Assembly (NCBI GenBank): GCA_963719645.1
Contig: CAVRCT010000001.1
Location: 509,644-573,643, forward strand
From: an uncultured Gammaproteobacteria bacterium
GTDB taxonomy: Bacteria > Pseudomonadota > Gammaproteobacteria > DSM-16500
DNA: 64,000 nucleotides
Reading direction: 5' to 3'
Shown: positions 1 to 64,000 of the stretch, one piece after another
Layout: the number at the start of each line of letters is the position of its first letter
Numbering within the stretch: the stretch's first letter is position 1
The notes under the pieces: generated by a model
Databases searched by the model: none
Seen by the model: the letters and a program-made list of their open reading frames with translations, nothing else
Told to the model about the DNA's origin: nothing
Translations under genes and position numbers: made by a program

Positions 1-1250
1 AGCATAAATGGCAGCATTTTATGTATATCCATTATCATTGGATTAATATAAAAAAAACTATAAAAAATTAAGAACAGAGAGGCAGGTGCAATGGCTTCAA
101 TCAGCCAAAGCATGGTTTCTAATTTAAATGATTTTTCGAAATAGACCTTAGCCTTTAACAAATGATAAAGCCATCTGCGATGCATACTATATGCTACATT
201 AGAAGATCTAATTTTTTCTATCTGCATTAACGATTCATTTAAAAAAGAAATAGTTTTACTTTGTTGTGAAAAATAAGCATTTATTTGCTTCGCATTTCTA
301 GCCAGTGAAAATAATTTTATTATGAAAATAATGATATAAATTGTGAAATAAATAAAAGCAAGCAACAAACTGCAATATGCCATATAGACAAGCAAAAATA
401 TAAACGATAGCACGCCACAAACCACCATCAATACCGTTGCAAAAATGACTGACAAAGAAGCCTCATAGTCAGTAAGACGCTGAACAAAATCACTCGATGT
501 AAATTTCTTAACTGCACCAAAAGGCAGACGCAACATATAACTCCATGCAGATGGCAAAACAACGGCTAAGACTCTGATACTCAGTACTTTTAAATATAAA
601 TCACTTAGATAACAGACTAGAGAAGAGCCAACTACCGCCATTAAAGAAATCAAAAATAAAATAAAATTGTGACCCTCCTTTAAATCATGAACATGATTAA
701 AAATATAACCCGAGATCAGTGAAATCAGAAGCACTGAGAGTGACGATAAAAAACCAAGCCCGAAAGAAACAAGAAATCCTTTCTTAAAAAAACGAAAAAC
801 AAAAATAAGTAAACTTGATAAATTAACTGCAAAAAGTGAATGAGCTGGATAACATTGCCACGCCCCACTCAATTCATGACTACTGATACGTTCAGAATAG
901 TGTTCAAACTGTTTCAGCTTGGGATTATATAAATTCAGTCTGCCAAATTGATTAGGAATAAGAACTTTATATTGATCTGATCCCTTAAATTTCAATATTA
1001 TTGGATGCAAGAGTTTAGCAAATATATTTTCAAAGGATAACAATACTGGTTCAAAGATTAATCCAAATAACTCTTTACTTGAATTATCAAGATTAATAGT
1101 CAGTTTCTCTCTAGCAACTTCGTTCCAATCAATAGATACCTTTTGTTGCATCGCAACAAATTTAATGCAATTAATTAAGTCGCAATTCAAATGAGAAGAA
1201 CGAGCGACTTTGTCAAATGCCTGCTGGAAAAATGATGCTGTTAATCGCAT
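1..1250 (-). CDS. ABC exporter subunit, partial (runs off window start); second transporter of the RiPP export module
   Basis: Own minus-strand translation. ATG at 1250 overlaps the stop of the upstream PCAT gene (ATGCGATTAA). The frame stays open to base 1: MRLTASFFQQAFDKVARS...MQQKVSIDWNEVAREKL..., then long hydrophobic helices (LLIFVFRFF, LSVLLISLISGYIF, FILFLISLMAVVGSSLV, VLMVVCGVLSFIFLLVYMAYCSLLLAFIYFTIYIIIF) as in ABC-exporter TMDs. Not in the ORF track because it is edge-truncated. Confidence 0.6.
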   Translation of the reverse strand, partial: MRLTASFFQQAFDKVARSSHLNCDLINCIKFVAMQQKVSIDWNEVAREKLTINLDNSSKELFGLIFEPVLLSFENIFAKLLHPIILKFKGSDQYKVLIPNQFGRLNLYNPKLKQFEHYSERISSHELSGAWQCYPAHSLFAVNLSSLLIFVFRFFKKGFLVSFGLGFLSSLSVLLISLISGYIFNHVHDLKEGHNFILFLISLMAVVGSSLVCYLSDLYLKVLSIRVLAVVLPSAWSYMLRLPFGAVKKFTSSDFVQRLTDYEASLSVIFATVLMVVCGVLSFIFLLVYMAYCSLLLAFIYFTIYIIIFIIKLFSLARNAKQINAYFSQQSKTISFLNESLMQIEKIRSSNVAYSMHRRWLYHLLKAKVYFEKSFKLETMLWLIEAIAPASLFLIFYSFFYINPMIMDIHKMLPFM

Positions 1251-3445
1251 AGCATTGAATCACGCAATGTCGCTTCATTTGCAACTAAAGAATAATAATA
1301 ACTTTGATTCTCTATCAACTCTTGATGCTTTCCTTGTTCGACAATGCTACCCTTGTTTAAAACATAAATTTGATCGCAATGTTGAATCGTTGAGAGGCGA
1401 TGTGCAACAAATATTATTGTCTTATTGTTTTTACGTAAATTCTTTATGATAGCTTGTTCTGTATTTTCATCCATTGCAGATGTTGCCTCGTCAAGAATTA
1501 GTATCGGTGTATCCTGGATCAGTGCTCTTGCAAGATCAATCCTTTGCTTCTCACCACCACTAAAGTTACGTCCTTCTTCATCAACGACACCGCTCAACTT
1601 TCTATTTGCAATTAACTCTGATAAACAAGCATCGCTGATCGATTGCTCAAGAAGCACTTGGCTAGCATTCTCATTTGAAAACAGTAAATTTTGCAAAATT
1701 GTACCTGAAAAAAGTGAAACATCCTGAGAGACATAGGCATATAACGTTGCAAGTTCATCGGCGGAGTGATTTGATAATAGATTTTTATTAAATAAAATTT
1801 CTCCTTCGGTCGGGGGATAAAAACCACAAATTAATTTAGCAAGTGTTGATTTTCCCGATCCCGTTCCACCAACCAATGCAACATGATCACCTCGACTAAT
1901 TTTTAAATTAATATCGTTCAATACAGGTGATGAATTTTTATTATAATAAAATGTGACCTGAGAAAGAGAAATTATTTCCTTTTCATTAGCAGCAAATTTT
2001 TTTATGACTTGTTTAGGCGTAAAACGGGGATCTTTGTCATAAGATAAAATATCGTCAAGCCTCGTATTATTCGCATATACCGCTTGAGAATCTTGTAATC
2101 CTTGAAATATCCGAGATATGCCATTTTGGAAAATCAACAGTAATGAGTAATATCCCATTAAATTACCGAGCGACAGTGAACCGCAAGCAACTTGATAAGC
2201 GCCCAAATAGACGATAGAGAGTGACGAAACCTGATTTTGCATTCTTCTTAGCGACAGCGCTGTAATTGCAAGGAAATCGTCATTACCTTGGACACGCATT
2301 TTATTGAAAAATAATGTTCTCCATTTTTTAAAAATGGACTCTTCTAAGCCGCACGCTTTGATTGTTTCAATGTTTCGAATACTTGAAATACTGTGAGAAT
2401 ACAATTTACCGACTAGGTGTGCATTTGATTTTTCAGAGGAGGATTTTATTCTTGAGAGGTAAACAAACAGGATGAGTGAAATAACGGTCAGCAAAAGTGA
2501 TAGCAATGACAATACCCAGTCAATTTCTATCATGAATATGAAACAGACCGTGGATGTGATCATTCCAAGCATCAATACCAGTGCATTCTCAAAAATTAGA
2601 TTGGTCACAAACTCGGCTCTATTCAACACTGAAACAATTTCGCTGCGTTGACGCAATGAAAAAAATAGCATTGGCAATTGAAAAATATGGCTTAAAATTT
2701 CTGATATCTTTTTTAAGGAGGCTTTCGAATGTAATTTGAACTGAATTCTCTTATAAATAAACGTTAGAAATATGAGAATAGTCGATGTTAAGAATGTTAG
2801 AAAAATAATATCTGGAATCAGGTTGTTATTTTTTGCAAGGATACCTTGATCGATAAATATCTTAAACAAGACTGAACTTAAATAGGGAATAGTGCCAATC
2901 AACGACAATAGTAACAGTAGATAACATAATTCTGAATGAAAACCTGAAAACCATTTTTGGATGAATTTTAGCAATGAGAAGGTTTTTTTGCTGACAGTGA
3001 TGTGCTGCGTTGGTGTTATTTCAAGGATAACACCTGTAAATGCCTTGTCGAACGCAGCCATTGTGATTATCATTTCGCCATGAGCTGGATCATTGATTGA
3101 AACTTTATTTGCTTTGATGTTGTTGATGACAACATAATGATTGAAGTTCCAATACGCTATTACTGGAAGTGAGAATTCATTGAGACCATCGATATCAACT
3201 TTGTATGCTTCTGCGTTAAATCCATAGTGTTTAGCAACCGTTAAAAGTGTTTGTGCTTTGCATCCATCTCGTGAAACACCGCATTTTTCGCGTAATTTCT
3301 CTATGGAGAGATTCATTTTGTGATGGGCAAACACCATTGCGAGAGACGCTATGCCGCATTCTGTATCGGAAAATTGTAGAATGACTGGGACTTTCGTTTT
3401 CCAGACGAGGAATAAATTTTTTATTTTTAGGATTATTTTTTGCAT
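1241..3445 (-). CDS. Peptidase-C39 domain ABC transporter (PCAT; leader-cleaving bacteriocin/RiPP exporter)
   Basis: 734-aa ORF. N-terminal C39 signature QFSDTECGIASLAMVFAHH (catalytic Cys), multi-helix TMD, Walker A GGTGSGKST, ABC signature FSGGEKQR, Walker B ILILDEATS. Confidence 0.9.
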   Translation of the reverse strand: MQKIILKIKNLFLVWKTKVPVILQFSDTECGIASLAMVFAHHKMNLSIEKLREKCGVSRDGCKAQTLLTVAKHYGFNAEAYKVDIDGLNEFSLPVIAYWNFNHYVVINNIKANKVSINDPAHGEMIITMAAFDKAFTGVILEITPTQHITVSKKTFSLLKFIQKWFSGFHSELCYLLLLLSLIGTIPYLSSVLFKIFIDQGILAKNNNLIPDIIFLTFLTSTILIFLTFIYKRIQFKLHSKASLKKISEILSHIFQLPMLFFSLRQRSEIVSVLNRAEFVTNLIFENALVLMLGMITSTVCFIFMIEIDWVLSLLSLLLTVISLILFVYLSRIKSSSEKSNAHLVGKLYSHSISSIRNIETIKACGLEESIFKKWRTLFFNKMRVQGNDDFLAITALSLRRMQNQVSSLSIVYLGAYQVACGSLSLGNLMGYYSLLLIFQNGISRIFQGLQDSQAVYANNTRLDDILSYDKDPRFTPKQVIKKFAANEKEIISLSQVTFYYNKNSSPVLNDINLKISRGDHVALVGGTGSGKSTLAKLICGFYPPTEGEILFNKNLLSNHSADELATLYAYVSQDVSLFSGTILQNLLFSNENASQVLLEQSISDACLSELIANRKLSGVVDEEGRNFSGGEKQRIDLARALIQDTPILILDEATSAMDENTEQAIIKNLRKNNKTIIFVAHRLSTIQHCDQIYVLNKGSIVEQGKHQELIENQSYYYSLVANEATLRDSMLCD

Positions 3446-3501
3446 TGGATAGTGAACTCCGATAAGGCTTTATCTCTCTGCTCCTTCTCACTCCGTAAGC
3501 G

Positions 3502-3530
3502 TCAAGCTAAGCAAAATTTCCTTAGCTTGA
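3502..3530. repeat. Short hairpin repeat (family D: TCAAGCTAAG-N9-CTTAGCTTGA)
   Basis: Perfect 10-bp inverted arms just upstream of the PCAT start. Related copies or half copies at 12921-12949 and 13347-13367. Confidence 0.7.
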
Positions 3531-3655
3531 TGTCCATGGCGAGGAGAGGAAGTTGATGGATGAAGTTCTTTTAAAACGCTTAAGAAAGCGCATCATCCTG
3601 AGCGCTCCAACTCCCGAAAAAGAGGGGGCAGCATTGAATAAGAACTTCTTCTTTT

Positions 3656-4031
3656 TATACAAATCCCCCTTGCTCCCCCTTTTTCAAAGTGGGAGACCTT
3701 CTAAACAGCTTTCACTGTTAAAACACAGAGCTGTTTAGAAGGTCTCCCACTTTGAAAAAGGGGGAACAAGGGGCAATGGCACTAGCTTAAGAACTGTTGT
3801 CCCGGAATTTAGTAGCTCTTAACGAGCGCCTTTTGCTCGTTTAGAGCTACTTAATGTCCGGGATCCATCTTCAATTTATCGCCCTCTTGCTTTTAACTTA
3901 TATGCTTTAAGCAAAATGGATCCCGGACATTAACTGGCGCTAAATTCGCAAAAAGCGCTCATTAAGCGCCAGTAAATTCCGGGACGACAGTTCTTAAGCT
4001 AGTGCCATTGGGAACAAGGGGGATTTGTATA
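3656..4031. repeat. ~375-bp composite nested palindrome (family A units plus an embedded 90-bp hairpin)
   Basis: Outer arms TATACAAATCCCCCTTGCTCC (3656-3676) / GGAACAAGGGGGATTTGTATA (4011-4031). Inner hairpin 3675-3764 (CCCCCTTTTTCAAAGTGGGAGACCTTCTAAACAGC ... inverse). Then CAATGGCACTAGCTTAAGAACTGTTGTCCCGGAATTT...GGGATCCAT // ATGGATCCC...AAATTCCGGGACGACAGTTCTTAAGCTAGTGCCATTG. It sits between the HlyD-like and PCAT genes. Confidence 0.85.
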
Positions 4032-4131
4032 AAAAAAATAAATTTTTCTCTGTAGATACCCATGAAGGTGATTACAAAAAATCAAGAAACTCATTATGCG
4101 TCAGCACAAAAAGCGCATCCTTGACACGAGA

Positions 4132-4980
4132 CTAGCGCTGAGCCATCAATCGCGCTGGCGAACTTTTTTTATAAATTATCTTAGCAGACACCATGGTCCC
4201 CGGCTCAATGCGATAAGACGAACCACGCTTTGTAGTCCATGCTAGCCCACTGTCCGTCGATTTATCTCTTTGTAAACGAATTTTGACAACAAAAGGAGCG
4301 CCTCCCATAAAAAAATCATCCACTAAATTCATATTGCCCAGATACGAATAGACCAATTGTTTTGAAATCGGATACGCAGAAATACTAATCACTTTTCCGA
4401 CAATGTATCCATGCGCATACTGTGATATGTCATTAGATAATACATAAGCGTTCATCCCCACTACTATCTTTTTTCCATGCGTACGATCTGCAAAAACTAA
4501 CGCGTCTAATTGCGTGTTTGAACTATTCATCTCAGTGTTTGATAACAAATTTGTTAAAGGAGAATAAGCATTTCCATTCGGACTAGATAATTCTTCTTTA
4601 GCGGCAATAAGCTCAGATTTTGTTTTTAGTAAGTCCTCTAGCGTGACATAATGATTCTCAAACATTTTCTTCTTCTTATTGTATAAGTCTTCTAACAAAA
4701 CAATTTTTTCATTACGATCTTTCAACGCTTGACTAAAAAGAGTTTCAACTGCAATTAATTTTTCTTCCGGCAGAATCATGCCATTTGTATCAACACTCAA
4801 TGTAATCGTTCCAAACAATCCCCACAGCAAAATACAAACGAGTATTAACGCCGCAAAAATCATCCAGAGCCACTCGCTGGGATTAATCACTTGGAGTGCT
4901 GGGTATATTTCATCTAATGAGTTCAAATTATCAAGAGCATTTTGACGAAATAAATTATTATCAAAAGAAGATTTCAACAT
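4132..4980 (-). CDS. HlyD-family periplasmic adaptor / bacteriocin-system secretion protein (short form)
   Basis: 282-aa ORF. The N-terminus FRQNALDNLNSLDEIYPALQVINPSEWLWMIFAALILVCILLWGLFG (conserved R..AL..L.S.D.L motif plus a single TM anchor) resembles NHLM-type bacteriocin secretion proteins. A coiled-coil stretch and beta-barrel-like C-terminus follow. Located between the ATP-grasp and PCAT genes. Confidence 0.7.
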   Translation of the reverse strand: MLKSSFDNNLFRQNALDNLNSLDEIYPALQVINPSEWLWMIFAALILVCILLWGLFGTITLSVDTNGMILPEEKLIAVETLFSQALKDRNEKIVLLEDLYNKKKKMFENHYVTLEDLLKTKSELIAAKEELSSPNGNAYSPLTNLLSNTEMNSSNTQLDALVFADRTHGKKIVVGMNAYVLSNDISQYAHGYIVGKVISISAYPISKQLVYSYLGNMNLVDDFFMGGAPFVVKIRLQRDKSTDSGLAWTTKRGSSYRIEPGTMVSAKIIYKKSSPARLMAQR

Positions 4981-15214: not shown

Positions 15215-15364
15215 CAATGGCACTCGCTTAAGAACTGTCGTCCCGGAATTTACTGGCGCTTAATGAGCGCCTTTTGCGAATTTAGCGCCAGTTAATATCC
15301 GGGATCCATTTTGCTTAAAGCACATAAGACGTAGGTTGGGTTAAGCGTCAGCGAAACCCAACAT
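15215..15364. repeat. Family A1 unit plus family E hairpin
   Basis: CAATGGCACTCGCTTAAGAACTGTCGTCCCGGAATTTACTGGCGCTTAATGAGCGCCTTTTGCGAATTTAGCGCCAGTTAATATCCGGGATCCATTTTGCTTAAAGCACATAAG, followed by GTTGGGTTAAGCGTCAGCGAAACCCAAC. Confidence 0.85.
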
Positions 15365-24085: not shown

Positions 24086-25327
24086 TTATCGTCTAACAAC
24101 TAATCCCCAATTTTGATCCCATATCTTTTGAGCTTGATGATTACCAGCTAGTTTTGCAACATCAAGTTCACTTTGAAATTCCTTCAGAGATGGACCAAAA
24201 ATTGAAAAAGGTATGACACTAACACATAGGTTATCATCACTTAATGTAGTCTTTGTATTGCCTAGACTAGAGATGATCAACTCTAATCTATCTATCCTAT
24301 GTAATTCTTCATCATCTATCTCTTCAGCTAATCTACCATATGATTTTTCGCCACCTATCATTTCAAATAGTGATTTCTGTGTAACAGTAATGCAATTTAC
24401 TTTAGGCAAATGCGACAATGATTCAGGAGATAATATGGCTTTTGCTAAATTCTGATATTGAGCTTCTAATTTTCGATAAAAATTAGCGAATTCTCCTAAT
24501 GCTATCTTTTTACCAACAATATCTAATTCTAATTTATAATCGACAACATCATCTATTCTTAAACCGTTTATCATTTTATAAATTTGGTCTAAAAGAATAA
24601 TGGTTTTTGTAGCTGTTAAGATTTCACCACCTGGTTTATATTGATAAGATTCGGGAGCACCTTTTGGTGCTTCTTCAAGATGCATCAATTCATGATAGGC
24701 AACGACATGAGGCGGTAAAAAACCGTCATATTTTTCATTATGAATCCCGTTGTCCGCTTCTACTGCAACATGCAGTCTCCATGTATTAAATTCATTTTCC
24801 AAATCAGACAACCATGTTTTATTGCTCTCTTCTCCTGGATATCCCGACTTTTTCCACGATACGCAGTTTTCTTCTGTTACACCATAGGTTTTATATTTTT
24901 CAATATAATCAAGAAAAATTTGTCTTGCAAATTTATTAGCTGCGTCACGTTGGTGATTAGGAATGATATATAAATATCTTGACTGGTAAATAGCTTTTTC
25001 AAAATTATGCAGGACATAATAGTCTGGCAAATTCATTGCTGTAATAATGTCGGTTAATTCCTCAGAACGTGTACCTACCACGGGACTCTGACGGGAGTGA
25101 AAACCTGGTGTATTAAGATAATTTAATTTTCTTTCGAGAGTTTGCTGGTGTTGTATATCTTTATGTTCGGCATTATTCATTTGAGGTTTAAATTCTACTA
25201 AAGCTGAATTTAAAATCCTAACAGGGGTAATACCAATGTTAACGATGCTTAAATTTTTTATTTTCACAAAAATTACTCCGATAATATCAGAAAAGGGGTC
25301 AGGTACTGAGCATATCGTTACCCACAA
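24086..25327 (-). CDS. Orphan protein with HExxH zinc-metalloprotease-like motif
   Basis: 413-aa track ORF. VVAYHELMHLEE (HELMH encoded at 24680-24694). The first ~20 codons lie in the flanking repeat, so the true start is probably the GTG at 25267 (GGAG 8 nt upstream) or M50. Confidence 0.6.
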   Translation of the reverse strand: MWVTICSVPDPFSDIIGVIFVKIKNLSIVNIGITPVRILNSALVEFKPQMNNAEHKDIQHQQTLERKLNYLNTPGFHSRQSPVVGTRSEELTDIITAMNLPDYYVLHNFEKAIYQSRYLYIIPNHQRDAANKFARQIFLDYIEKYKTYGVTEENCVSWKKSGYPGEESNKTWLSDLENEFNTWRLHVAVEADNGIHNEKYDGFLPPHVVAYHELMHLEEAPKGAPESYQYKPGGEILTATKTIILLDQIYKMINGLRIDDVVDYKLELDIVGKKIALGEFANFYRKLEAQYQNLAKAILSPESLSHLPKVNCITVTQKSLFEMIGGEKSYGRLAEEIDDEELHRIDRLELIISSLGNTKTTLSDDNLCVSVIPFSIFGPSLKEFQSELDVAKLAGNHQAQKIWDQNWGLVVRR

Positions 25328-25447
25328 GTCTAAAAAGCCCTACGGCTCCAGCTTAAAAGTAGGCTGTCGTCCCGGAATTTACTGGCGCTTAATGAGCGCA
25401 TTTTGCGAATTTAGCGCCAGTTAATGTCCGGGATCCATTTTGCTTAG
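25311..25447. repeat. Family A1 unit with extended left flank
   Basis: CATATCGTTACCCACAAGTCTAAAAAGCCCTACGGCTCCAGCTTAAAAGTAGGCTGTCGTCCCGGAATTTACTGGCGCTTAATGAGCGCATTTTGCGAATTTAGCGCCAGTTAATGTCCGGGATCCATTTTGCTTAG. The same flank occurs at both ends of the 27344-27651 composite. Confidence 0.85.
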
Positions 25448-27249: not shown

Positions 27250-27256
27250 TATGAAT

Positions 27257-27332
27257 CGGGGTCAGGCTTGCACAATTGCACATTCCTACGCCTGATTAAA
27301 AGTGCAATTGTGCAAGCCCCGTTTTGACCCCG
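27257..27332. repeat. Family F palindrome, unoccupied copy
   Basis: CGGGGTCAGGCTTGCACAATTGCAC-ATTCCTACGCCTGATTAAAA-GTGCAATTGTGCAAGCC-CCGTTT-TGACCCCG. Inner 17-bp and outer 8-bp stems. Confidence 0.85.
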
Positions 27333-27343
27333 TTTCGCGCCTA

Positions 27344-27651
27344 AGTCTAAAAGGCCCTACACCTCTAGCTTAAAAGTAGGCTGTCATCCCGGAATTTAGT
27401 AGCTCTAAACGAGCGCTTTTGCTCGTTTAGAGCTACTTAATGTCCGGGATCCATTTTCAATTTACCGCCTTCTTGCTTTTTAACTTGCGTGCTTTAAGCA
27501 AAATGGATCCCGGACATTAACTGGCGCTAAATTCGCAAAAAGCGCTCATTAAGCGCCAGTAAATTCCGGGACGACAGCCTACTTTTAAGCTAGAGGTGTA
27601 GGGCTTTTTAGACTTGTGGGTAACGATATGAGTGCAACCATATCATTACCC
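27344..27651. repeat. ~300-bp composite palindrome, same architecture as 3656-4031 (A2 unit + central segment + inverted A1 unit, extended arms)
   Basis: AGTCTAAAAGGCCCTACACCTCTAGCTTAAAAGTAGGCTGTCATCCCGGAATTTAGTAGCTCTAAACGAGCGCTTTTGCTCGTTTAGAGCTACTTAATGTCCGGGATCCAT ... ATGGATCCCGGACATTAACTGGCGCTAAATTCGCAAAAAGCGCTCATTAAGCGCCAGTAAATTCCGGGACGACAGCCTACTTTTAAGCTAGAGGTGTAGGGCTTTTTAGACT, then a GGGTAACGATATG/CATATCATTACCC hairpin. Confidence 0.85.
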
Positions 27652-32389: not shown

Positions 32390-32590
32390 CTCTATTGATT
32401 TTGACAACGAAAACAGATCCCATAAATATTTAAACTATAATATGAAATAACTTTTTTACCTTTTTGTGAGCCATTAGAAATTCGATAATTAATCGAGTAA
32501 CTCTGGTGCTGCCTCATGTCGTCACTCACTGTATCAGTCGAGAGATAACAATTTTCCGCATCATACTCAATCAAACTTGATCGTTCAACA

Positions 32591-32655
32591 ATCGGGGTCA
32601 GGCTTTCACAATTGCACATTCCTACACCTGATTGAAAGTGCAATTGTGCAAGCCA
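32591..32655. repeat. Family F palindrome, unoccupied copy (one arm mismatch)
   Basis: ATCGGGGTCAGGCTTTCACAATTGCACATTCCTACACCTGATTGAAAGTGCAATTGTGCAAGCC. Confidence 0.85.
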
Positions 32656-32747
32656 GACCACGTTTCTTGAAATCCAAGATAGGTCAACATTTGTTAAATT
32701 TTCGCTTAAGCAATATATTATTTCTATTTTTTAAATCAATAGCTTAC

Positions 32748-34470: not shown

Positions 34471-34534
34471 AATCGGGGTCAGGCTTGCACAATTGCACAT
34501 TCCTACACCTGATTGAATGTGCAATTGTGCAAGC
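34471..34534. repeat. Family F palindrome, occupied by the IS110-family element
   Basis: ATCGGGGTCAGGCTTGCACAATTGCACATTCCTACACCTGATTGAATGTGCAATTGTGCAAGCC, immediately followed by the IS. The distal TGACCCCGTTTC reappears at 36091-36102. A half copy lies at 34276-34305. Confidence 0.85.
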
Positions 34535-36090
34535 CTGATAATCATCTAGCCGAACTCCTCCCACAACGATTAATCTAACGTTGTTACGGACGTTAATTTA
34601 ATTAGGAGGAATTCATATGCAACTATATGCAGGAATTGATTTACATTCAAATAATAGTTTTTTAGTAGTTATGCAATCAGACAATAAGATTGTCTATGAA
34701 AAGCGCTTACCAAATATTATTGATCGAATCGTAAATGAATTAGATCCTTTTAAGGAAGATTTAGTAGGTGTTGTAGTTGAATCTACATATAACTGGTATT
34801 GGTTAGTAGATGGTTTAAAAGCTGAGGGGCACAAGGTATCTTTGGCAAATACGACCGCCATCCAGCAATACAATGGATTAAAGCAAACTAATGACAAGAC
34901 GGATGCTCGTTGGTTAGCGAAGTTATTGCAGTTAAATATTCTTCCTACAGGATATATTTATCCTAAAGAGAAACGAGGTGTAAGAGATTTGTTACGTAAA
35001 CGTATGCAAATGGTGCAACAACGAACGTTACATCTCCTGAGCTTACAAACATTGATTGAACGTAATACGAGCATACAACTTAAAGCAAATGAAATAAAAA
35101 AACTAACTGAAGAAGACTTGAAAAAATATTTTTCCGATGAAACAATTATTCTTGCAGCAAAAAGTAATTTACTTGTCATGCAGTGTATTGACGAACAAGT
35201 TAATGCAACGGAAAAAGAAGTATTAAAACGAGCACGATTGAGCGAAGTATATGAAAAATTATTAACAGTCGATGGAATAGGAAAAATACTTGCTTTAACC
35301 ATTATGATGGAAACCGGTGAAATAAATAGATTTCGTCAAGTTGGAAATTATGCTTCTTACTGCCGATGCGTAAACAGCAAGAAAATCAGTAATGGGAAAA
35401 AGAAAGGTGAAAATAATCGAAAGAACGGTAACCGATATCTCGCATGGGCTTATGTTGAAGCAGCAAATTTTGCAATTCGATTTAATCCCATTATAAAAAA
35501 GTATTATCAAAAGAAAAAAGCTAAAACAAGTAACGTTGTTGCGATTAAAACAATAGCGCACAAGCTTGCTCGTGCTTGTTTTTATATTTTAAAAGACGGA
35601 GTAAATTTTGATGTAAATAAAAGTTTTTGATAGGGATATCCAGGTTGGCTGGGGCAGCATAACCAGTATTGGGGTTGGTAAAACCATTTGGTCTGATTGG
35701 CTGCTGTCTCATCCATTTAATTGAAGATGAAGTTTAAAAGCTGTTAAACTGAGATGCCTATACCGTGAGCCTATAAGAGGTATGGAACTGGAAACAGTAG
35801 CCAATATGCCTGTGATATTGCATCACTTGGACACGGTATGGCACTTAAGATTTTCTGGGGCATTTTATAATGCCAGGGGTTTGCCATAAGCTTTAGGCTT
35901 GGGCTTATACCTTGATCCTGATGGGTGACTGTTGCAACTCGGTGGCGAGTTGACAACTTAAGACGAAAATTTGGGTGCATGTCCTTTACAGCTATATAAA
36001 ACTTTTAAAAATATCTTCAATAAAAATGCGAAATTAAAAATATTTCGTAGCGGGGCCATTTTTTCTATTGACCGGAGTTCGGCTAATGGG
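34535..36090 (+). mobile_element. IS110-family (IS1111-like) insertion sequence inserted in a family F palindrome
   Basis: Boundaries inferred by comparison with the empty sites at 27257-27332 and 32591-32655. Sub-terminal 12-bp inverted repeats TAGCCGAACTCC (34546-34557) / GGAGTTCGGCTA (36074-36085). Single transposase ORF. Confidence 0.8.
34617..35630 (+). CDS. IS110-family transposase
   Basis: 337 aa. N-terminal MQLYAGIDLHSNN (DEDD-type motif 1) and C-terminal DGIGKILALTIMMETGEINRFRQVGNYASYCR...SNGKKKG are typical of IS110/IS1111 transposases. Confidence 0.93.
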   Translation: MQLYAGIDLHSNNSFLVVMQSDNKIVYEKRLPNIIDRIVNELDPFKEDLVGVVVESTYNWYWLVDGLKAEGHKVSLANTTAIQQYNGLKQTNDKTDARWLAKLLQLNILPTGYIYPKEKRGVRDLLRKRMQMVQQRTLHLLSLQTLIERNTSIQLKANEIKKLTEEDLKKYFSDETIILAAKSNLLVMQCIDEQVNATEKEVLKRARLSEVYEKLLTVDGIGKILALTIMMETGEINRFRQVGNYASYCRCVNSKKISNGKKKGENNRKNGNRYLAWAYVEAANFAIRFNPIIKKYYQKKKAKTSNVVAIKTIAHKLARACFYILKDGVNFDVNKSF

Positions 36091-42741: not shown

Positions 42742-42877
42742 TAAAAACCAAAAGAAAAGGTTATCTTGAAAAATGTAAAAATGGTGACTTACATATTTTC
42801 GCCTATATACCAAGCCAGACCTTGCTCAATGATGCGCATCATCGAACGGTAACCGTTCCGCAATCCACACCAATCAG

Positions 42878-44419
42878 CTAAAGCTGTATAAACTGCGGCA
42901 ACAACTTGCGGTAATCATCTTCGGTAACGCATCCACGGATTCGAGTTAACATAGCGCATAAATATCGATAAGGTTCGATATTGTTTGCTTTGCAAGTTTC
43001 AATGAGCGAATAGAAGATAGCACCTGCTTTTGCTCCACTCGGACTTGCATTGAATAACCAGTTTTTGCGACCAATCGCAAATGGGCGTATGGCATTTTCA
43101 ACTAGGTTATTATCTATTTCGACACGACCATTAATTAAATAATTATTCAATTCTGTCCAGTTACCGACACAGTAACGAATAGCTTTACCAATAGCGCCTT
43201 GTTCTGAGGTTTTAGGTGTGTGATGATCAAGCCATTTTTTAAATGCTGCAAGTACAGGAACAGATTTTTCTTGGCGTAATTTATATCGCTCTTCTGGCGT
43301 TAATTGGTTATCTCGTGCTTCGCTTTCAACCGCATAAAGCTTTCGATAAAACTTTATAGCTTCATGCGCAAGACCAGATGTTTTTTGTGTTTTTGCTAAC
43401 TCAGCAAATGGTCTTCTTGCATGAGCGTGACATCCAACACGTAAAATTTCTTCTTTATCATTCGCCCAGTTATAACCGGAGAATGCATCACTTTGTAAAT
43501 AGCCTTCAAACCCCAACAAAAATTGTTGCGCGTGGTAACCACCGCGAGTTTCTTGATATTCATAAACAATACAAGGATTACTTCCTCCGCCGCGATAAAC
43601 CCACATATAAGATTTGGTGCGATTATCACGTCCAACTTCATTTAAAACTTGTACGCTTGTTTCATCGACTTGAACATAATCGTTAGAAATAATAATTTTT
43701 TGTAATAACCTAACAAGAGGTACAGCAAATTCTGCAGTTTTTAACACCCAACCACATAAACTGCTGCGTGGCATATCTATTTCCATGCGCTTCCACATTT
43801 CTTCTTGTCGATAAAGCGGAAGATGATCACAATATTTTGAGACGACAACATGAGCAACTAATTCGGGTGTCGCGATGCTTTTTGGTAAAAGCAATACGGG
43901 CATTGGTGCAATTTTTACATTCTCTTGACAAGGCTTACATGCATACTTCGGTCTCACATGCTGGATTACACTGACTTTCGCAGGGATGTATTTGAGTTGT
44001 TCGCTAATTTCATTACCTATATGCATTAGAGGCGTGCCACAACCACAGATTTTTTCCATTTCAGATATATCGTGCATTATAACTTCACGTGGAAGATAGG
44101 CTGGTAACGGCTTGCGTATTGGGTGTTTTTTACGAACATGCGACTGAACTTTTATTTCTTCATCTTCAATATGCTCTTTGACTTCATCTGGCAAGTCAAT
44201 GCCAGCTTCATCGAACATGTCTGGCTGTAAAATATTTTTTTCTGATGATGGCGAAAAATATCGTTGCTTTGATAAGCGAATCTCTTCAAGAAGATTCGCA
44301 TATTTTATTTTGTATTCTGCAAATTCATTTTGATTTTTATGCAGAGCTTCTTGCAGATGAAGAATGATGTTTTTTAATTCTTCTTCTGATTTTGGTAAGT
44401 TTTCAATATTAAATTTCAT
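42878..44419 (-). CDS. tnpC: IS66-family DDE transposase (TnpC)
   Basis: 513 aa. CGCGTPLMHIG...CKPCQ zinc finger, DHLPLYRQ, VDETSVQVL, DNNLVENAIRPF. Confidence 0.95.
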   Translation of the reverse strand: MKFNIENLPKSEEELKNIILHLQEALHKNQNEFAEYKIKYANLLEEIRLSKQRYFSPSSEKNILQPDMFDEAGIDLPDEVKEHIEDEEIKVQSHVRKKHPIRKPLPAYLPREVIMHDISEMEKICGCGTPLMHIGNEISEQLKYIPAKVSVIQHVRPKYACKPCQENVKIAPMPVLLLPKSIATPELVAHVVVSKYCDHLPLYRQEEMWKRMEIDMPRSSLCGWVLKTAEFAVPLVRLLQKIIISNDYVQVDETSVQVLNEVGRDNRTKSYMWVYRGGGSNPCIVYEYQETRGGYHAQQFLLGFEGYLQSDAFSGYNWANDKEEILRVGCHAHARRPFAELAKTQKTSGLAHEAIKFYRKLYAVESEARDNQLTPEERYKLRQEKSVPVLAAFKKWLDHHTPKTSEQGAIGKAIRYCVGNWTELNNYLINGRVEIDNNLVENAIRPFAIGRKNWLFNASPSGAKAGAIFYSLIETCKANNIEPYRYLCAMLTRIRGCVTEDDYRKLLPQFIQL

Positions 44420-44459
44420 GCGCTCAATATAGCAAAGAATAGCTATATTTTCGAGTATT

Positions 44460-44810
44460 TTAGCAAAAACTTTCTATCTGGCTTGACCTCATATTATTGA
44501 TTCGAGAATATTTGTCGCTTGCTAGCAACCATTTTAAATGCTCTCTGCTCATCTCAATACAACCTTCCGCATCACGAGCAAAAACAAACCTGCCTCTCTC
44601 TAATCGACGGTACCACAAAGTAAAACAATTCATCTCATAATAAAGAGCTTTTAATTTGTTACCACTTTTCCCGCGAAATAGAAATAAACTTCCGTCAATT
44701 GGATTCATTTTCATGATTTCAGAAATCAAAATATTAAGAGTATCAATTGACTTTCTCATATCAACCGGCTGAGTATAAAAATAAATTTTCACATCATCAG
44801 GTATTAACAT
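44460..44810 (-). CDS. tnpB: IS66 Orf2 (TnpB)
   Basis: 116 aa. IYFYTQPVDMRKSIDTLNILISEIMKMNPIDGSLFLFRGKSGNKLKALYYEMNCFTLWYRRLERGRF. Confidence 0.92.
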   Translation of the reverse strand: MLIPDDVKIYFYTQPVDMRKSIDTLNILISEIMKMNPIDGSLFLFRGKSGNKLKALYYEMNCFTLWYRRLERGRFVFARDAEGCIEMSREHLKWLLASDKYSRINNMRSSQIESFC

Positions 44811-45118
44811 GCCAATAATACCTCTACTAGTTTTTTAATGTGCAATGCATCTACAGCAGAAGAAAACACGCATTGAAATCCATTTGGTAAATTCAAACGT
44901 ATTTCTTTTTCGTTTGATTGTTGATTGATTTTAACCGAAGCAAACGATCCGACTGGTTTTAGATCTTTCAAAGGTTTTGGCTTTAAAATACCGCGATAAT
45001 ATCCAAATTGTGCTGAGGATAAATTTTTTTGTTTGCAAAAATTAATTTGGGACAGGCCACTTTGTTCTTGCTCTTCGATTAAGATTTTCCACTTTTCTCG
45101 TTGCTCGACTTTATCCAT
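44804..45118 (-). CDS. tnpA: IS66 accessory protein TnpA-like
   Basis: 104 aa: MDKVEQREKWKILIEEQEQSGLSQINFCKQKNLSSAQFGYY... The identical N-terminus is encoded at 63846-64000. Confidence 0.85.
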   Translation of the reverse strand: MDKVEQREKWKILIEEQEQSGLSQINFCKQKNLSSAQFGYYRGILKPKPLKDLKPVGSFASVKINQQSNEKEIRLNLPNGFQCVFSSAVDALHIKKLVEVLLAC

Positions 45119-45195
45119 TTATTTGCTCCTTGATTATTGAAGGAAATAGGATGGAGTAATTTTAGGGGGTTGAGAAGATGGGGTTGGCTAAACGC

Positions 45196-46512
45196 TTACG
45201 TCGAAATAAATCCGCGGATGCGTACAAAAATATCAGCTCCTTTTGCTGATCGAAATCCACCTGATATTTTTTGTTTACACTTCATCATACGAATATCTCG
45301 TTCAGCTTGGTTATTTGTAAATGGAACAAGTGGATTCATCAAAAACCTTAACACATCATCGCGATAGTTTTTTAGCCTTAAAAGTAAATTGTGGCCTGCG
45401 CGGCGTGCTTTTCGCCCGCGATTCTCTTTATCTGAGAATAAAGGTAAATTTTCATGATAAAAAACACCTTCATCCACAATGGCATTGTATAAATGAGTTA
45501 GTCGATTTAATTTATCATCCGGAATAAATTGGTCTCCATAAGCATGTCGATAGCGCAATCCAAATTGCAAAAATCGCCGCATTTTCCTCGCCCATGGTTC
45601 TTTGTCATATTCAATCAGCGCTTTTAGTTCACGCATATGATGCTGATTACATAACGCATGTAACACATCAGATAATTGATAATAAGGTTTCCAATGATCG
45701 TGCACTACGATGCCTTTCAACTTTTCTAAAAGAGATTTTCGTTTTTTTGAAACATGGTAATACGTTAGATGCTTCGTTGATGCAACATGCAGCCATTGTG
45801 TACAGCCTGTTACTCGAAACCCTGTTTCATCCAAATGTTTTACCGGTGCCGCTTGAATGTTTGACAACACTGCCTTATCAAAATCGTCTAATTTGTTATA
45901 TGCCGATTCACTAAAATGATTGAGCGTTGCTGTTGCTAGATTGACATTGAATAAATCGCGAAATGTTTCTTGCAAGCGATCTTCTGGAATAAGCTGTTGG
46001 TGCTGAAAATAGAGGCTATAACTCTGAATAACTTTTCCATATTGAACAGGTGCATTGATGCCTTCAGGAAAAACAGCCATGACACGTCGATGGCAGCACG
46101 AGCACATTTTTATTTCTGCTTGATGTTCAGTGACTTCAAGCGTTGGTAGTGGAATATCAAAAACTTGTCGTTTTAAAATGCCTAACACTTCCACTTTTGT
46201 CAACGATGTCAAGCAATGAGGGCATGTTGATAGTGCATGACGTTCAAATCTATTCGGTGCTTGAACTTGCTTCAGTGTTTCGCCTTTATGACCCACTTGA
46301 CCACCGCTTTTCTGTTTGCTTTTTTGTCGCAATGAGCTTGTTCGGGGTGGCTTTGATAAACCGTCACTTGAGGGTGGTTTTGAGCTATTGCTGCTATTCT
46401 TATCCAAGCGTTTTTCTAACTCAGCAATTCTGGCTGCCTGTTGTTTGACGATCTGCTCAAACACAGCAATTTTGTCCATGAGCTTTTGAATAAGTAAGTC
46501 TTTTTCGTCCAT
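45196..46512 (-). pseudogene. Single-ORF IS66-family transposase, 3'-truncated by the IS66 member-2 insertion
   Basis: 438 aa. Coiled-coil N-terminus, PPSSDG...GGQVGHKG, CPHC...CSCC zinc finger, HLDETGFRVTG..WLHV, NNQAERDIRMMK. The ORF ends ...RIRGFIST* exactly at the 45199 IS boundary. Confidence 0.8.
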
Positions 46513-63719: not shown

Positions 63720-63764
63720 TTTTTAGGCAGAATCAATTTATATTTAATTTTGTATGGTTTTTTA

Positions 63765-64000
63765 GTAAGCGTTTAGCCAACCCCATCTTCTCAACCCCCT
63801 AAAATTACTCCATCCTATTTCCTTCAATAATCAAGGAGCAAATAAATGGATAAAGTCGAGCAACGAGAAAAGTGGAAAATCTTAATCGAAGAGCAAGAAC
63901 AAAGTGGCCTGTCCCAAATTAATTTTTGCAAACAAAAAAATTTATCCTCAGCACAATTTGGATATTATCGCGGTATTTTAAAGCCAAAACCTTTGAAAGA
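63765..64000 (+). mobile_element. IS66-family member 2, second copy (partial; continues beyond window end), inverted relative to 42849-45199
   Basis: GTAAGCGTTTAGCCAACCCCATCTTCTCAACCCCCTAAAATTACTCCATCC... equals the reverse complement of 45150-45199. The distance from terminus to tnpA ATG is the same (81 bp). Confidence 0.9.
63846..64000 (+). CDS. tnpA: IS66 TnpA-like, partial (edge-truncated)
   Basis: MDKVEQREKWKILIEEQEQSGLSQINFCKQKNLSSAQFGYYRGILKPKPLK..., identical to the start of 44804..45118. Confidence 0.88.
   Translation, partial: MDKVEQREKWKILIEEQEQSGLSQINFCKQKNLSSAQFGYYRGILKPKPLK

What the first reader, a model, noticed from the sequence alone, without database searches (positions are those of the whole stretch)
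3656..4031. Two ~300-375-bp composite palindromes with identical modular architecture at unrelated loci (here and at 27344-27651)
Both loci read: outer arm - CTGT(T/C)(G/A)TCCCGGAATTTAGTAGCTCT(T/A)AACGAGCGC..GCTCGTTTAGAGCTACTTAATGTCCGGGATCCAT (unit A2) - ~55-bp centre (…CTTGCTTTT(T)AACTT..GTGCTTTAAGCAAAATGGATCC) - inverted unit A1 (CCGGACATTAACTGGCGCTAAATTCGCAAAAAGCGCTCATTAAGCGCCAGTAAATTCCGGGACGACAG) - outer arm inverse.

A1 and A2 share termini but have different, individually self-complementary interiors. Solo A1 units occur at 15236-15310 and 25365-25440.

The 3656 copy additionally carries a 90-bp hairpin (3675-3764) embedded in its left arm, with GGAACAAGGGG appearing on both sides. This is consistent with one element having inserted into another.

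This copy sits inside the RiPP operon, between the adaptor and PCAT genes, where it could act as a polar terminator or processing site.
Basis: seen in the sequence. Interest (0 to 1): 0.6.

Follow-up and report, generated by a model that had tools for sequence, protein, structure and literature searches.

The report
IS4-derived MITE nested in another MITE
The two "composite palindromes" are copies of a roughly 100-copy miniature transposon with ends of an IS4-family insertion sequence; the copy at 3774-4010 jumped into another small palindromic repeat between two genes of a peptide-export operon, which is an ordinary kind of bacterial junk-DNA event with an unusually conserved hairpin cargo.

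Summary
The shared core (unit A2, centre, inverted unit A1; 197 bp) occurs 100 times full-length and 12 times truncated in this 2.4-Mb genome.

**Window 3774-4010** is a 237-bp MITE ("type A").
- It has 20-bp terminal inverted repeats, CAATGGCACTAGCTTAAGAA.
- It has an 11-bp target-site duplication, GGAACAAGGGG.
- It sits in the right arm of a separate 126-bp palindromic repeat.

**Link to the IS4 family.**
- The ends fit the published IS4-subgroup end consensus and its 10-13-bp duplication length.
- Intact 1.5-kb IS4-family elements with near-identical ends and 11-bp duplications exist in three related genomes.
- This genome keeps only a 252-bp internally deleted copy of such an element.

**Second locus (about 27331-27630)** carries the same core inside different, longer arms ("type B", 8 copies).

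**"Solo A1" units** are truncated halves of the composite.

**Hairpin units.** They recur in other Coxiellaceae- and Legionella-labelled genomes, often as inverted doublets, with strong compensatory covariation. What moves them there is unknown.

Verdict: new member of a known kind, of moderate interest.

The parts
3774..4010 (.). Type A MITE, 237 bp. It differs by one base from the family consensus.
   Evidence: There are 82 terminal-repeat pairs genome-wide, 63 of them exactly 237 bp apart. Of 78 full copies, 41 are identical to the consensus and 20 differ by one base.
3774..3793 (+). Left terminal inverted repeat, CAATGGCACTAGCTTAAGAA.
   Evidence: It fits the IS4-subgroup end consensus -AATR--------WTW---- (PMC2266710 Table 1). 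It differs at 3 of 20 positions from the ends of the intact IS in L106.
3991..4010 (-). Right terminal inverted repeat, TTCTTAAGCTAGTGCCATTG.
3763..3773 (.). Left copy of the 11-bp target-site duplication, GGAACAAGGGG.
   Evidence: 69 of 82 copies have an 11-bp direct repeat with at most 1 mismatch. There are 20 distinct duplicated sequences, with consensus GG(A/G)NCA(A/G)GGGG.
4011..4021 (.). Right copy of the 11-bp target-site duplication.
3794..3871 (+). Hairpin unit A2, read from CTGTTGTCCCGGAATTTAG to CTTAATGTCCGGGATCCAT.
   Evidence: Alignment A1 of 72 distinct units gives 96.7% paired cells and 12 pairs changed on both sides. None of 500 shuffles reached this.
3872..3912 (.). Centre or spacer, bounded by GGATCCAT and ATGGATCC.
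   Evidence: The spacer varies from 21 to 82 nt in doublets of other genomes.
3913..3990 (-). Hairpin unit A1, in the opposite orientation to A2.
3657..3773 (.). Host 126-bp palindromic repeat: left arm, loop and most of the right arm.
   Evidence: The reconstructed empty site is 123/126 identical to the intact copy at C1:65404-65529. There are 128 empty arms against 60-70 filled arms in the genome.
4022..4030 (.). Host repeat: the end of the right arm beyond the duplication, GATTTGTAT.
27331..27630 (.). Type B copy. It has the same core (27381-27577) inside about 50-bp arms (consensus CATATCGTTACCCACAAGTCTAAAAAGCCCTACGCCTCTAGCTTAAAAGTAGG). The left end of this copy is degenerate.
   Evidence: Alignment of 8 type B copies. 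An 8-bp duplication is visible in 2 of the 8 (CTAGGGTC, GTTGCACC).
15215..15328 (-). Truncated type A copy: terminal repeat, A1 and part of the centre. It is cut off at 15329 next to a GTAG-type REP.
25316..25446 (-). Truncated type B copy: arm, A1 and the start of the centre.
   Evidence: (I2).
1241..3445 (-). Downstream gene: peptidase-C39 ABC transporter (PCAT).
   Evidence: Pfam Peptidase_C39 8e-41, ABC_membrane, ABC_tran.
4132..4980 (-). Upstream gene: 282-aa protein with no Pfam match.

Best explanation
Window 3774-4010 is one copy of a non-autonomous miniature transposon (MITE) that uses the ends of an IS4-family insertion sequence.

**Proposed mechanism**
- A DDE transposase of that IS clade, supplied in trans, bound the 20-bp terminal inverted repeats.
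- It cut the element out or copied it.
- It inserted it with cuts staggered by 11 bp into sites resembling GG(A/G)NCA(A/G)GGGG.

**Where it lands.** The commonest such site lies in both arms of an older 126-bp palindromic repeat. This is why this copy, and about 60% of all copies, are nested in that repeat.

**Cargo.** The element carries no gene. Its interior is an inverted doublet of two about 70-nt hairpin units (A2 and A1).

**Transposase source.** In this genome the source is gone: only an internally deleted 252-bp relic of the IS remains.

**Second locus.** It carries the same doublet inside different, longer arms (type B).

**Shown versus inferred**
- Shown: copy number, ends, duplication, target preference, the empty site, intact partner ISs in relatives, and the relic in this genome.
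- Inferred: that this transposase clade moved the element, and that the burst was recent.
For: **Copy number**
- 100 full and 12 partial cores.
- 82 terminal-repeat pairs.

**Duplication and target**
- An 11-bp direct repeat flanks 69 of 82 copies; only 18 of 82 shuffled flank pairs show one, all at the shared host-arm target.
- There are 20 distinct duplicated sequences with a clear consensus.
- The element occurs in both orientations in both host arms: 16, 13, 13 and 7.
- The reconstructed empty site matches an intact host copy at 123/126.

**Link to IS4**
- The ends fit the IS4-subgroup consensus, and the duplication length falls in its 10-13 bp range (PMC2266710).
- Three intact partners were found in related genomes:
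  - L106 (G081): 1521 bp, ends TAATGGCACTAACTTAAGGA, duplication GGGTCAGGCCT, 463-aa transposase. It matches NCBIfam transpos_IS4_1 at 197 bits (cut-off 115) and Pfam DDE_Tnp_1 at 4e-16.
  - L107 (G077): duplication AGGTCTGACCT.
  - L109 (G055): ends CAATGGCACTACCTTAA, duplication ATCTTATACAT.
- GGGTCAGGCCT is also the duplication of a type A copy in this genome, at C1:441202.
- The relic of the IS in this genome is at C1:416355-416606. It has both ends and a 55-aa transposase fragment.

**Age and location**
- 41 of 78 copies are identical to the consensus.
- 99 of 100 copies are intergenic.

**Other organisms**
- A 94%-identical copy with the 11-bp duplication AGGTCTGACCC lies on an unrelated metagenome contig.
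Against: - No intact transposase of this clade is in the assembly. Yet most copies are identical, so either the loss was very recent, the source is unassembled or foreign, or the copies are homogenised by gene conversion.
- No mobilisation was observed directly.
- Type B copies have other arms and apparently 8-bp duplications, so a second mechanism must have moved the same cargo.
- In G055 the hairpin doublets have no such ends and no duplication, so the cargo has a life of its own that this explanation does not cover.
Confidence: 0.85

Rival explanations
1. The doublet is a REPIN-like element: two inverted REP-type hairpins moved as single-stranded DNA by a RAYT / Y1 (HUH) transposase. The IS4-type ends would be incidental.
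For: - Inverted doublets of the unit, 21-82 nt apart, recur in several genomes.
- The hairpin has strong covariation.
- It has conserved irregular features: a bulged G, two T-T mismatches, a tandem G-A, and a conserved 5' TGTC.
- G-T pairs outnumber A-C pairs 62 to 20, which suggests folding of one strand.
- In G055 the doublets end exactly at TGTCATCC...GGATGACA, with no duplication and unique flanks.
- This genome has four Y1_Tnp genes.
Against: - In this genome essentially every doublet sits inside type A or type B arms, and type A has clean 11-bp duplications. HUH transposition does not produce these.
- The four Y1 genes are flanked by other repeats, not by these units.
- The distribution of the C8 Y1 gene does not track the hairpins.
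- G055, which has 31 units, has no Y1_Tnp match at all.
Confidence: 0.07
2. The hairpins are kept by selection as functional RNA or DNA structures that the host uses, for example transcript-end stabilisers, RNase processing sites, attenuators or protein-binding sites. At 3774-4010 they would modulate expression of the PCAT gene.
For: - The structure is conserved, with compensatory changes, across genera and at least two orders.
- Copies are enriched between convergent genes and depleted between divergent genes: 36 and 11 of 98, against about 23% each expected by intergenic length.
- The predicted fold is very stable: -148 kcal/mol for the element and -260 kcal/mol with the host repeat on the operon's transcript strand.
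- MITE-derived small RNAs are reported in Coxiella burnetii (PMC5896051).
Against: - There is no orientation bias relative to transcription.
- There is no T-run terminator.
- No Rfam family matched; only sub-threshold generic hairpin hits appeared.
- The distribution among genomes is patchy, 5 of 86 in the order, which fits a selfish element better than a host function.
- Palindromes also covary through DNA-level processes.
Confidence: 0.06
3. The two loci are a local or segmental duplication, or a chance resemblance produced by by-eye parsing.
For: None beyond the fact that only two full composites lie in this window.
Against: There are 100 full copies on 8 contigs with unique flanks.
Confidence: 0.01

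Closest known systems
IS4 family, IS4 subgroup (De Palmenaer, Siguier and Mahillon 2008, PMC2266710), and MITEs or cassettes derived from IS4-family elements
   Same: - The end consensus -AATR--------WTW---- is met.
- The duplication length falls in the 10-13 bp range.
- Target specificity is marked.
- Relatives' intact elements encode a transpos_IS4_1 / DDE_Tnp_1 transposase and have the same ends and 11-bp duplications.
   Different: - No intact transposase is present in this genome.
- The interior is not a deleted transposase gene but a doublet of conserved hairpins.
- The match to Nterm_IS4 in the partner transposase is below threshold, 18 bits against 25.
QMITE2 of Coxiella burnetii (Wachter et al. 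2018, PMC5896051)
   Same: - It comes from the same broad bacterial family: two relatives in the same GTDB family are labelled Coxiellaceae.
- It is a small MITE of 150-190 bp with terminal repeats and unique 7-11 nt direct repeats.
- It is built around a REP-like palindrome.
- It has about 50-80 copies, mostly intergenic or at gene 3' ends.
   Different: - Sequence homology was not tested here.
- QMITE2 carries a GTAG-type REP and is a target of IS1111.
- The present element has IS4-type ends, a two-hairpin doublet, and itself targets another repeat.
REPIN / RAYT systems (REP doublets forming hairpins). This comparison rests on my own knowledge of Bertels and Rainey 2011, which I did not read here.
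   Same: - It is an inverted doublet of about 60-70-nt imperfect palindromes with a conserved 5' motif.
- It has many copies.
- In G055 there is no duplication.
   Different: - No cognate RAYT was found.
- In this genome the doublets move, or moved, inside transposon ends that make 11-bp duplications.

Membership tests
MITE (non-autonomous DNA transposon) | Small size with no coding capacity | tested here: met
   The element is 237 bp. No ORF of at least 50 aa lies within 3774-4010.
MITE (non-autonomous DNA transposon) | Terminal inverted repeats | tested here: met
   The ends are 20 bp perfect, or 32 bp counting CTGTCGTCCCGG. There are 82 pairs.
MITE (non-autonomous DNA transposon) | Target-site duplication of fixed length with variable sequence | tested here: met
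   An 11-bp duplication is present in 69 of 82 copies, with 20 distinct sequences.
MITE (non-autonomous DNA transposon) | Many dispersed copies, with empty sites available for comparison | tested here: met
   There are about 100 copies. The reconstructed empty site matches an intact host repeat at 123/126.
MITE (non-autonomous DNA transposon) | An autonomous element with matching ends | tested here: met
   L106, L107 and L109 in related genomes match. In this genome only the deleted relic at C1:416355-416606 is found.
IS4 family, IS4 subgroup | End consensus -AATR--------WTW---- | tested here: met
   In CAATGGCACTAGCTTAAGAA, positions 2-5 are AATG and positions 14-16 are TTA.
IS4 family, IS4 subgroup | Direct repeats of 10-13 bp | tested here: met
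   The repeats are 11 bp.
IS4 family, IS4 subgroup | DDE transposase of the IS4 type encoded by the partner element | tested here: met
   The L106 transposase scores 197 bits on NF033592 transpos_IS4_1 (cut-off 115) and 4e-16 on PF01609. Nterm_IS4 scores only 18 bits against a 25-bit cut-off.
IS4 family, IS4 subgroup | An active transposase present in the same genome | tested here: not met
   Only a 55-aa fragment was found. PF13006 is absent. The only PF01609 gene is another IS4 type, and it is itself interrupted by a type A copy.
REPIN / RAYT | Inverted doublet of REP-like hairpins | tested here: met
REPIN / RAYT | No target-site duplication | tested here: not met
   This genome shows 11-bp duplications. 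The bare doublets of G055 do lack one.
REPIN / RAYT | A cognate single-copy RAYT flanked by the same REPs | tested here: not met
   The four Y1 genes are flanked by other repeats. G055 has no Y1_Tnp. No co-distribution was seen.
Intrinsic terminator | G+C-rich hairpin directly followed by a T/U run | tested here: not met
   The only terminator-like site in 3300-4300 is at 4128-4114, outside the element.
Any Rfam RNA family | Match at the gathering score | tested here: not met
   There were 0 matches in the window. Only sub-threshold microRNA-precursor-like hairpin hits appeared.
QMITE2 (Coxiella burnetii) | Sequence similarity to CbsR16 / QMITE2 | not tested
   No QMITE2 sequence was at hand. 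The comparison rests on the features described in PMC5896051.

The most novel reading that the evidence does not exclude
The about 70-nt hairpin unit, and its inverted doublet, may be an old, horizontally spreading module in its own right.

- It is recognised as a folded single strand by a so far unidentified protein that is not a RAYT.
- In some genomes (G055) it spreads bare, without duplications.
- In this genome it has been captured twice, by IS4-type ends (11-bp duplication) and by a second kind of end (type B, about 8 bp), producing hybrid MITEs.
- Its conserved irregularities would be the recognition code: a 5' TGTC, a bulged G, two T-T mismatches and a tandem G-A.
Probability: 0.25. 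Interest if true: 0.6.

Novelty: new member of a known kind. Interest (0 to 1): 0.35.

Why it matters
**For annotation**
- About 100 loci of this genome, roughly 1% of its DNA, can be labelled as one MITE family. Its host repeat adds a similar number.
- This explains contig breaks in short-read assemblies; one public contig ends at the element's border.

**For mobile-DNA biology**
- It is a clean example of a MITE burst whose transposase has since been lost. 41 copies are identical, and only a relic of the IS remains.
- It shows strong targeting of one repeat by another.
- It shows a structured hairpin doublet travelling as cargo between different transposon ends.

**For the RiPP operon**
- The insertion adds 374 nt of very stable structure between the adaptor-like gene and the PCAT gene. 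This may or may not uncouple their expression.

Nothing here changes a long-standing question unless the hairpin module proves to have its own mobilising or binding protein.

Tried and rejected
1. An autonomous copy in this genome. No terminal-repeat pair lies more than 322 bp apart except one chance pair 34 kb apart. The unpaired ends are truncated copies.
2. The 2-kb interval between the half copy at 25316-25446 and the type B copy as a transposase-bearing element. It encodes a 446-aa membrane-type protein, not a transposase.
3. The single DDE_Tnp_1 gene of this genome (C7:238012-239313) as the partner. It is another IS4 type (transpos_IS4_3) with other ends, and a type A copy interrupts it.
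4. RAYT as the mobiliser. Rejected for this genome.
5. A GIY-YIG gene as a linked partner. It is adjacent to a unit in only 3 of 82 loci from other genomes.
6. Rfam families: none matched.
7. Literature search for the hairpin strings: 0 papers.
8. Presence/absence polymorphism at this locus.
   - The metagenome scan with the 282-aa protein found no relative.
   - The exact-protein look-up gave one short contig that ends at the repeat.
10. The outer terminal repeat, allowing up to 3 mismatches, occurs in no other of the 86 genomes of the order.

Full report
**1. Observation**

Both loci read as described. A repeat search within the window already links several places:
- 3774-3871, 3891-3990, 15215-15328, 25311-25446 and 27343-27630.

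The window is C1:509644-573643 of a 2.40-Mb, 9-contig genome with about 41% G+C. It is rated 100% complete.

BLAST of the 197-bp core (A2, centre, A1) against the whole genome gives 100 full-length and 12 partial loci on eight contigs. Of these, 73 are 99% identical to the window copy.

**2. Anatomy of the element at 3656-4031**

Aligning all copies with their flanks shows where similarity ends. The unit is CAATGGCACTAGCTTAAGAA-CTGTCGTCCCGG...CCGGGACGACAG-TTCTTAAGCTAGTGCCATTG.
- There are 82 terminal-repeat pairs, and 63 of them are exactly 237 bp apart.
- Directly outside, 69 of 82 copies have an 11-bp direct repeat with at most 1 mismatch.
- There are 20 distinct repeat sequences, with consensus GG(A/G)NCA(A/G)GGGG. 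Examples are GAGAGGGTCAG, GGGTCAGGCCT and GGGGCAAGTCC.

In the window:
- The element is 3774-4010.
- The duplication is GGAACAAGGGG, at 3763-3773 and 4011-4021.

**3. The host repeat**

The sequence around the element is a separate 126-bp palindromic repeat (ATACAAATCCCCCTTGTTCCCCCTTTTTCAAAGTGGGAGACC...).
- It has 128 empty arms and 60-70 filled arms in the genome.
- Deleting 3774-4021 from the window gives a 126-bp sequence that is 123/126 identical to the intact copy at C1:65404-65529.

The insertions look independent and later than the host's own spread:
- 49 of 82 copies lie in the site CCCCTTGTTCC / GGAACAAGGGG.
- They occur in both orientations in both arms: 16, 13, 13 and 7.
- The host copies are more diverged than the guests.

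**4. Which transposase**

This genome's IS inventory does not supply a candidate:

| Element | Relevance |
|---|---|
| IS110/IS1111-like | ends do not match |
| Two IS66 types | ends do not match; known for 8-bp duplications (own knowledge) |
| IS30 | ends do not match |
| One IS4-family gene at C7:238012-239313 | A different type (NCBIfam transpos_IS4_3). A type A copy interrupts it. |

The published summary of the IS4 family gives, for the IS4 subgroup, the end consensus -AATR--------WTW---- and direct repeats of 10-13 bp. It notes striking target specificity (PMC2266710 Table 1). The type A end CAATGGCACTAGCTTAAGAA meets that consensus, and 11 bp lies in the range.

A search for the terminal repeat in all fetched loci then found intact elements in related genomes:

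| Locus (genome) | Size | Ends | 11-bp duplication | Transposase |
|---|---|---|---|---|
| L106 (G081) | 1521 bp | TAATGGCACTAACTTAAGGA | GGGTCAGGCCT | 463 aa; transpos_IS4_1 197 bits (cut-off 115); DDE_Tnp_1 4e-16; weak Nterm_IS4 |
| L107 (G077) | about 1512 bp | same end type | AGGTCTGACCT | 72% identical to L106 |
| L109 (G055, three copies) | about 1538 bp | CAATGGCACTACCTTAA | ATCTTATACAT | 42% identical to L106 |

- The duplication GGGTCAGGCCT of L106 is also the duplication of a type A copy in this genome, at C1:441202.
- The transposase clade occurs in 13 of the 86 genomes of the order.
- More than 5,700 relatives at E <= 1e-20 are in the public protein collection.

This genome holds only a relic at C1:416355-416606. 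It is about 252 bp, has both ends (TAATGGCACTAACTTAAGAA and its inverse), and keeps a 55-aa transposase fragment. The parent IS was therefore once here and is now dead.

Of 78 full type A copies, 41 are identical to the consensus and 20 differ by one base. The burst was very recent, or the copies are being homogenised.

A 94%-identical copy with the duplication AGGTCTGACCC lies on a metagenome contig that is otherwise unrelated to this genome.

**5. The second locus and the "solo" units**

*Type B.* The copy at about 27331-27630 belongs to a small subfamily of 8 copies, with cores 93-95% identical to type A.
- Its arms are about 50 bp. The consensus is CATATCGTTACCCACAAGTCTAAAAAGCCCTACGCCTCTAGCTTAAAAGTAGG.
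- The inner part of these arms resembles the type A end.
- Two clean copies show 8-bp duplications (CTAGGGTC, GTTGCACC). The others are too decayed to judge.
- I did not find its parent element.

*"Solo A1" units.* These are truncated composites.
- 15215-15328 keeps the type A end, A1 and half the centre. It is cut next to a GTAG-type REP.
- About 25316-25446 keeps the type B arm, A1 and the start of the centre.
- True 115-bp single-hairpin versions with both type A ends do exist elsewhere, in 3 copies.

**6. The hairpin units**

*Distribution.*
- The 237-bp query finds only the hairpin portion in other genomes of the order.
- The outer repeat is unique to this genome among the 86.
- An exact-end pattern (CCCGGAATTTA, 30-60 nt, TTAATGTCCGGGA) hit at least 77 stretches in the species-representative collection.
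- The hits lie in MAGs labelled Legionella sp., Legionellaceae, Coxiellaceae and Gammaproteobacteria, plus three labelled Alphaproteobacteria. The units are often inverted doublets 21-82 nt apart.
- Contig lengths identify G055 and G066 with records labelled "uncultured Gammaproteobacteria" and "uncultured Coxiellaceae bacterium". The window's family is therefore Coxiellaceae-like.
- Within the order the units are patchy: 197 in this genome, 70 in G072, 31 in G055, 8 in G068 and 2 in G066.

*Structure.* An alignment of 72 distinct units, scored against a hairpin I specified, gives:
- 96.7% paired cells.
- 12 pairs changed on both sides, and 253 compensatory cells.
- None of 500 shuffles reached any of these three measures or the covariation score (10 of 500 reached the count of further pair types), and there is a sharp drop when the partners are slid by any offset.
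- The five central pairs each show all four Watson-Crick types.

*Conserved features outside the search pattern*:
- A 5' TGTC.
- A T-T mismatch (columns 28/52).
- A tandem G-A (columns 32-33/46-47).
- A 3' (T/C)C(C/T)AT.
- G-T pairs outnumber A-C pairs 62 to 20, which hints that one strand folds. The sequences are related, so this is only a hint.

The A1/A2 differences are compensated within each unit, not across units. The local hairpins are therefore what is kept, although the minimum-energy RNA fold prefers one long hairpin.

**7. What moves the units elsewhere**

In G055 the doublets end exactly at TGTCATCC...GGATGACA, with unique flanks and no duplication. That pattern resembles a REPIN. 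I tested the RAYT idea:
- This genome's four Y1 genes are flanked by other repeats.
- The distribution of one of them does not follow the hairpins.
- G055 has no Y1_Tnp match.
- GIY-YIG genes lie next to units in only three loci.

Three of the five hairpin-bearing genomes carry traces of the IS4 clade, against 10 of the other 81. By my own hypergeometric estimate this gives P of about 0.02. It is weak, and MAG incompleteness matters.

One MAG has an IS4-type-ended MITE with a different hairpin cargo.

The origin and the independent mobility of the doublet remain open. This is the most novel reading left.

**8. Context and possible effect**

The element lies in a 686-bp gap on the minus-strand operon.
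- It is 101 nt downstream of the stop of the 282-aa gene (4132-4980, no Pfam match).
- It is 211 nt upstream of the start of the PCAT gene (1241-3445; Peptidase_C39, ABC_membrane, ABC_tran).

On the transcript strand, guest plus host fold to -260 kcal/mol with a z-score of -24. There is no T-run terminator and no promoter-like site in the element.

Genome-wide (using crude ORF calls of my own):
- 99 of 100 copies are intergenic.
- 36 lie between convergent genes, 51 between tandem genes and 11 between divergent genes. By intergenic length about 23%, 54% and 23% would be expected.
- There is no orientation bias: 22 same versus 29 opposite.

This is the usual picture for tolerated selfish repeats. 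It neither shows nor excludes an effect on PCAT expression.

**9. Comparison and verdict**

Mechanistically this is a MITE of an IS4-family (IS4 subgroup) element. Every defining feature I could test is met, except the presence of a live transposase in the same genome.

The closest described relatives in biology are the QMITEs of Coxiella burnetii, especially QMITE2: a REP-cored MITE with unique 7-11-nt direct repeats (PMC5896051). Sequence homology to them was not tested.

The family itself, its targeting of a second repeat, and its covarying hairpin doublet were not found in the literature searched.

I file it as a new member of a known kind. My confidence in the main explanation is about 0.85. 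Interest is moderate.

Noticed in passing
window 3657-3773 + 4022-4030; e.g. G000 C1:65404-65529: There is a separate 126-bp palindromic repeat family (ATACAAATCCCCCTTGTTCCCCCTTTTTCAAAG...) with roughly 95 copies. About a third of its arms carry a type A insertion. Its own ends, duplication and parent were not worked out.
   Followed up: partly
G000 C1:105659-106837 (outside the window): A 1.18-kb repeat with no ORF of at least 90 aa (about 5-6 copies, ends TGACGGATCGACGCAAATTCCACCCATGCGTCGTCC) also sits in the CCCCTTGTTCC site of the host repeat. Short versions exist, e.g. near C5:121116.
   Followed up: no
G000 C1:416355-416606: This is an internally deleted relic (about 252 bp) of the IS4-family parent element. 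It has both ends and a 55-aa transposase fragment. Its two flanks differ, so no duplication is left.
   Followed up: yes
G000 C7:237821-239416: A single-copy IS4-family (transpos_IS4_3) transposase gene has its 3' end interrupted by a type A copy with duplication GGTCCAGGAGG.
   Followed up: partly
window 15329-15363; G000 C3:56977-57534 and C6:122709-123233: Two RAYT-type Y1 genes are each flanked by arrays of their own GTAG-type REPs (GTAGGTTGGGT... and GTAGGGTGGATTAGACGCGCC...). A REP of the first kind abuts the truncated type A copy at 15215-15328.
   Followed up: partly
G000 C1:361372-362785 and 4 other copies: A 1414-bp IS110/IS1111-like element is inserted in tandem GGGCTGTCATCCTGAGTGCTTAAGAAAGG repeats.
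   Followed up: no
window 42845-45199 and 63764-64000: These are copies of an IS66-family element with its three usual genes. They account for the 236-nt perfect inverted repeat 44964-45199 / 63765-64000.
   Followed up: partly
L118 (metagenome contig Ga0207042_1371) 220-456: One type A copy, 94% identical and with the 11-bp duplication AGGTCTGACCC, lies in an organism whose other DNA does not match this genome. The target there is itself a local repeat (GGATTTCAGGTCTGACCCC).
   Followed up: partly
L084 1785-2014 (MAG CAVZRN01): A MITE of about 230 bp has IS4-type ends (CAATGGCACTACCTTAAGGA) but a different hairpin cargo (GGGCGGTTCGTGAACCGCCC). It is inserted right beside a cluster of the hairpin units.
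   Followed up: no
L010/L091 (G066) and L065 (G055): A small GIY-YIG-type gene ends 13 nt or less from a hairpin unit in three loci. This is too few to call an association.
   Followed up: partly
window 27253-27321, 32590-32657, 34471-34538: Another palindromic repeat family (AATCGGGGTCAGGCTTGCACAATTGCAC...) lies directly left of the type B copy. It contains GGGTCAGGCTT, a sequence that serves as a type A target elsewhere.
   Followed up: no
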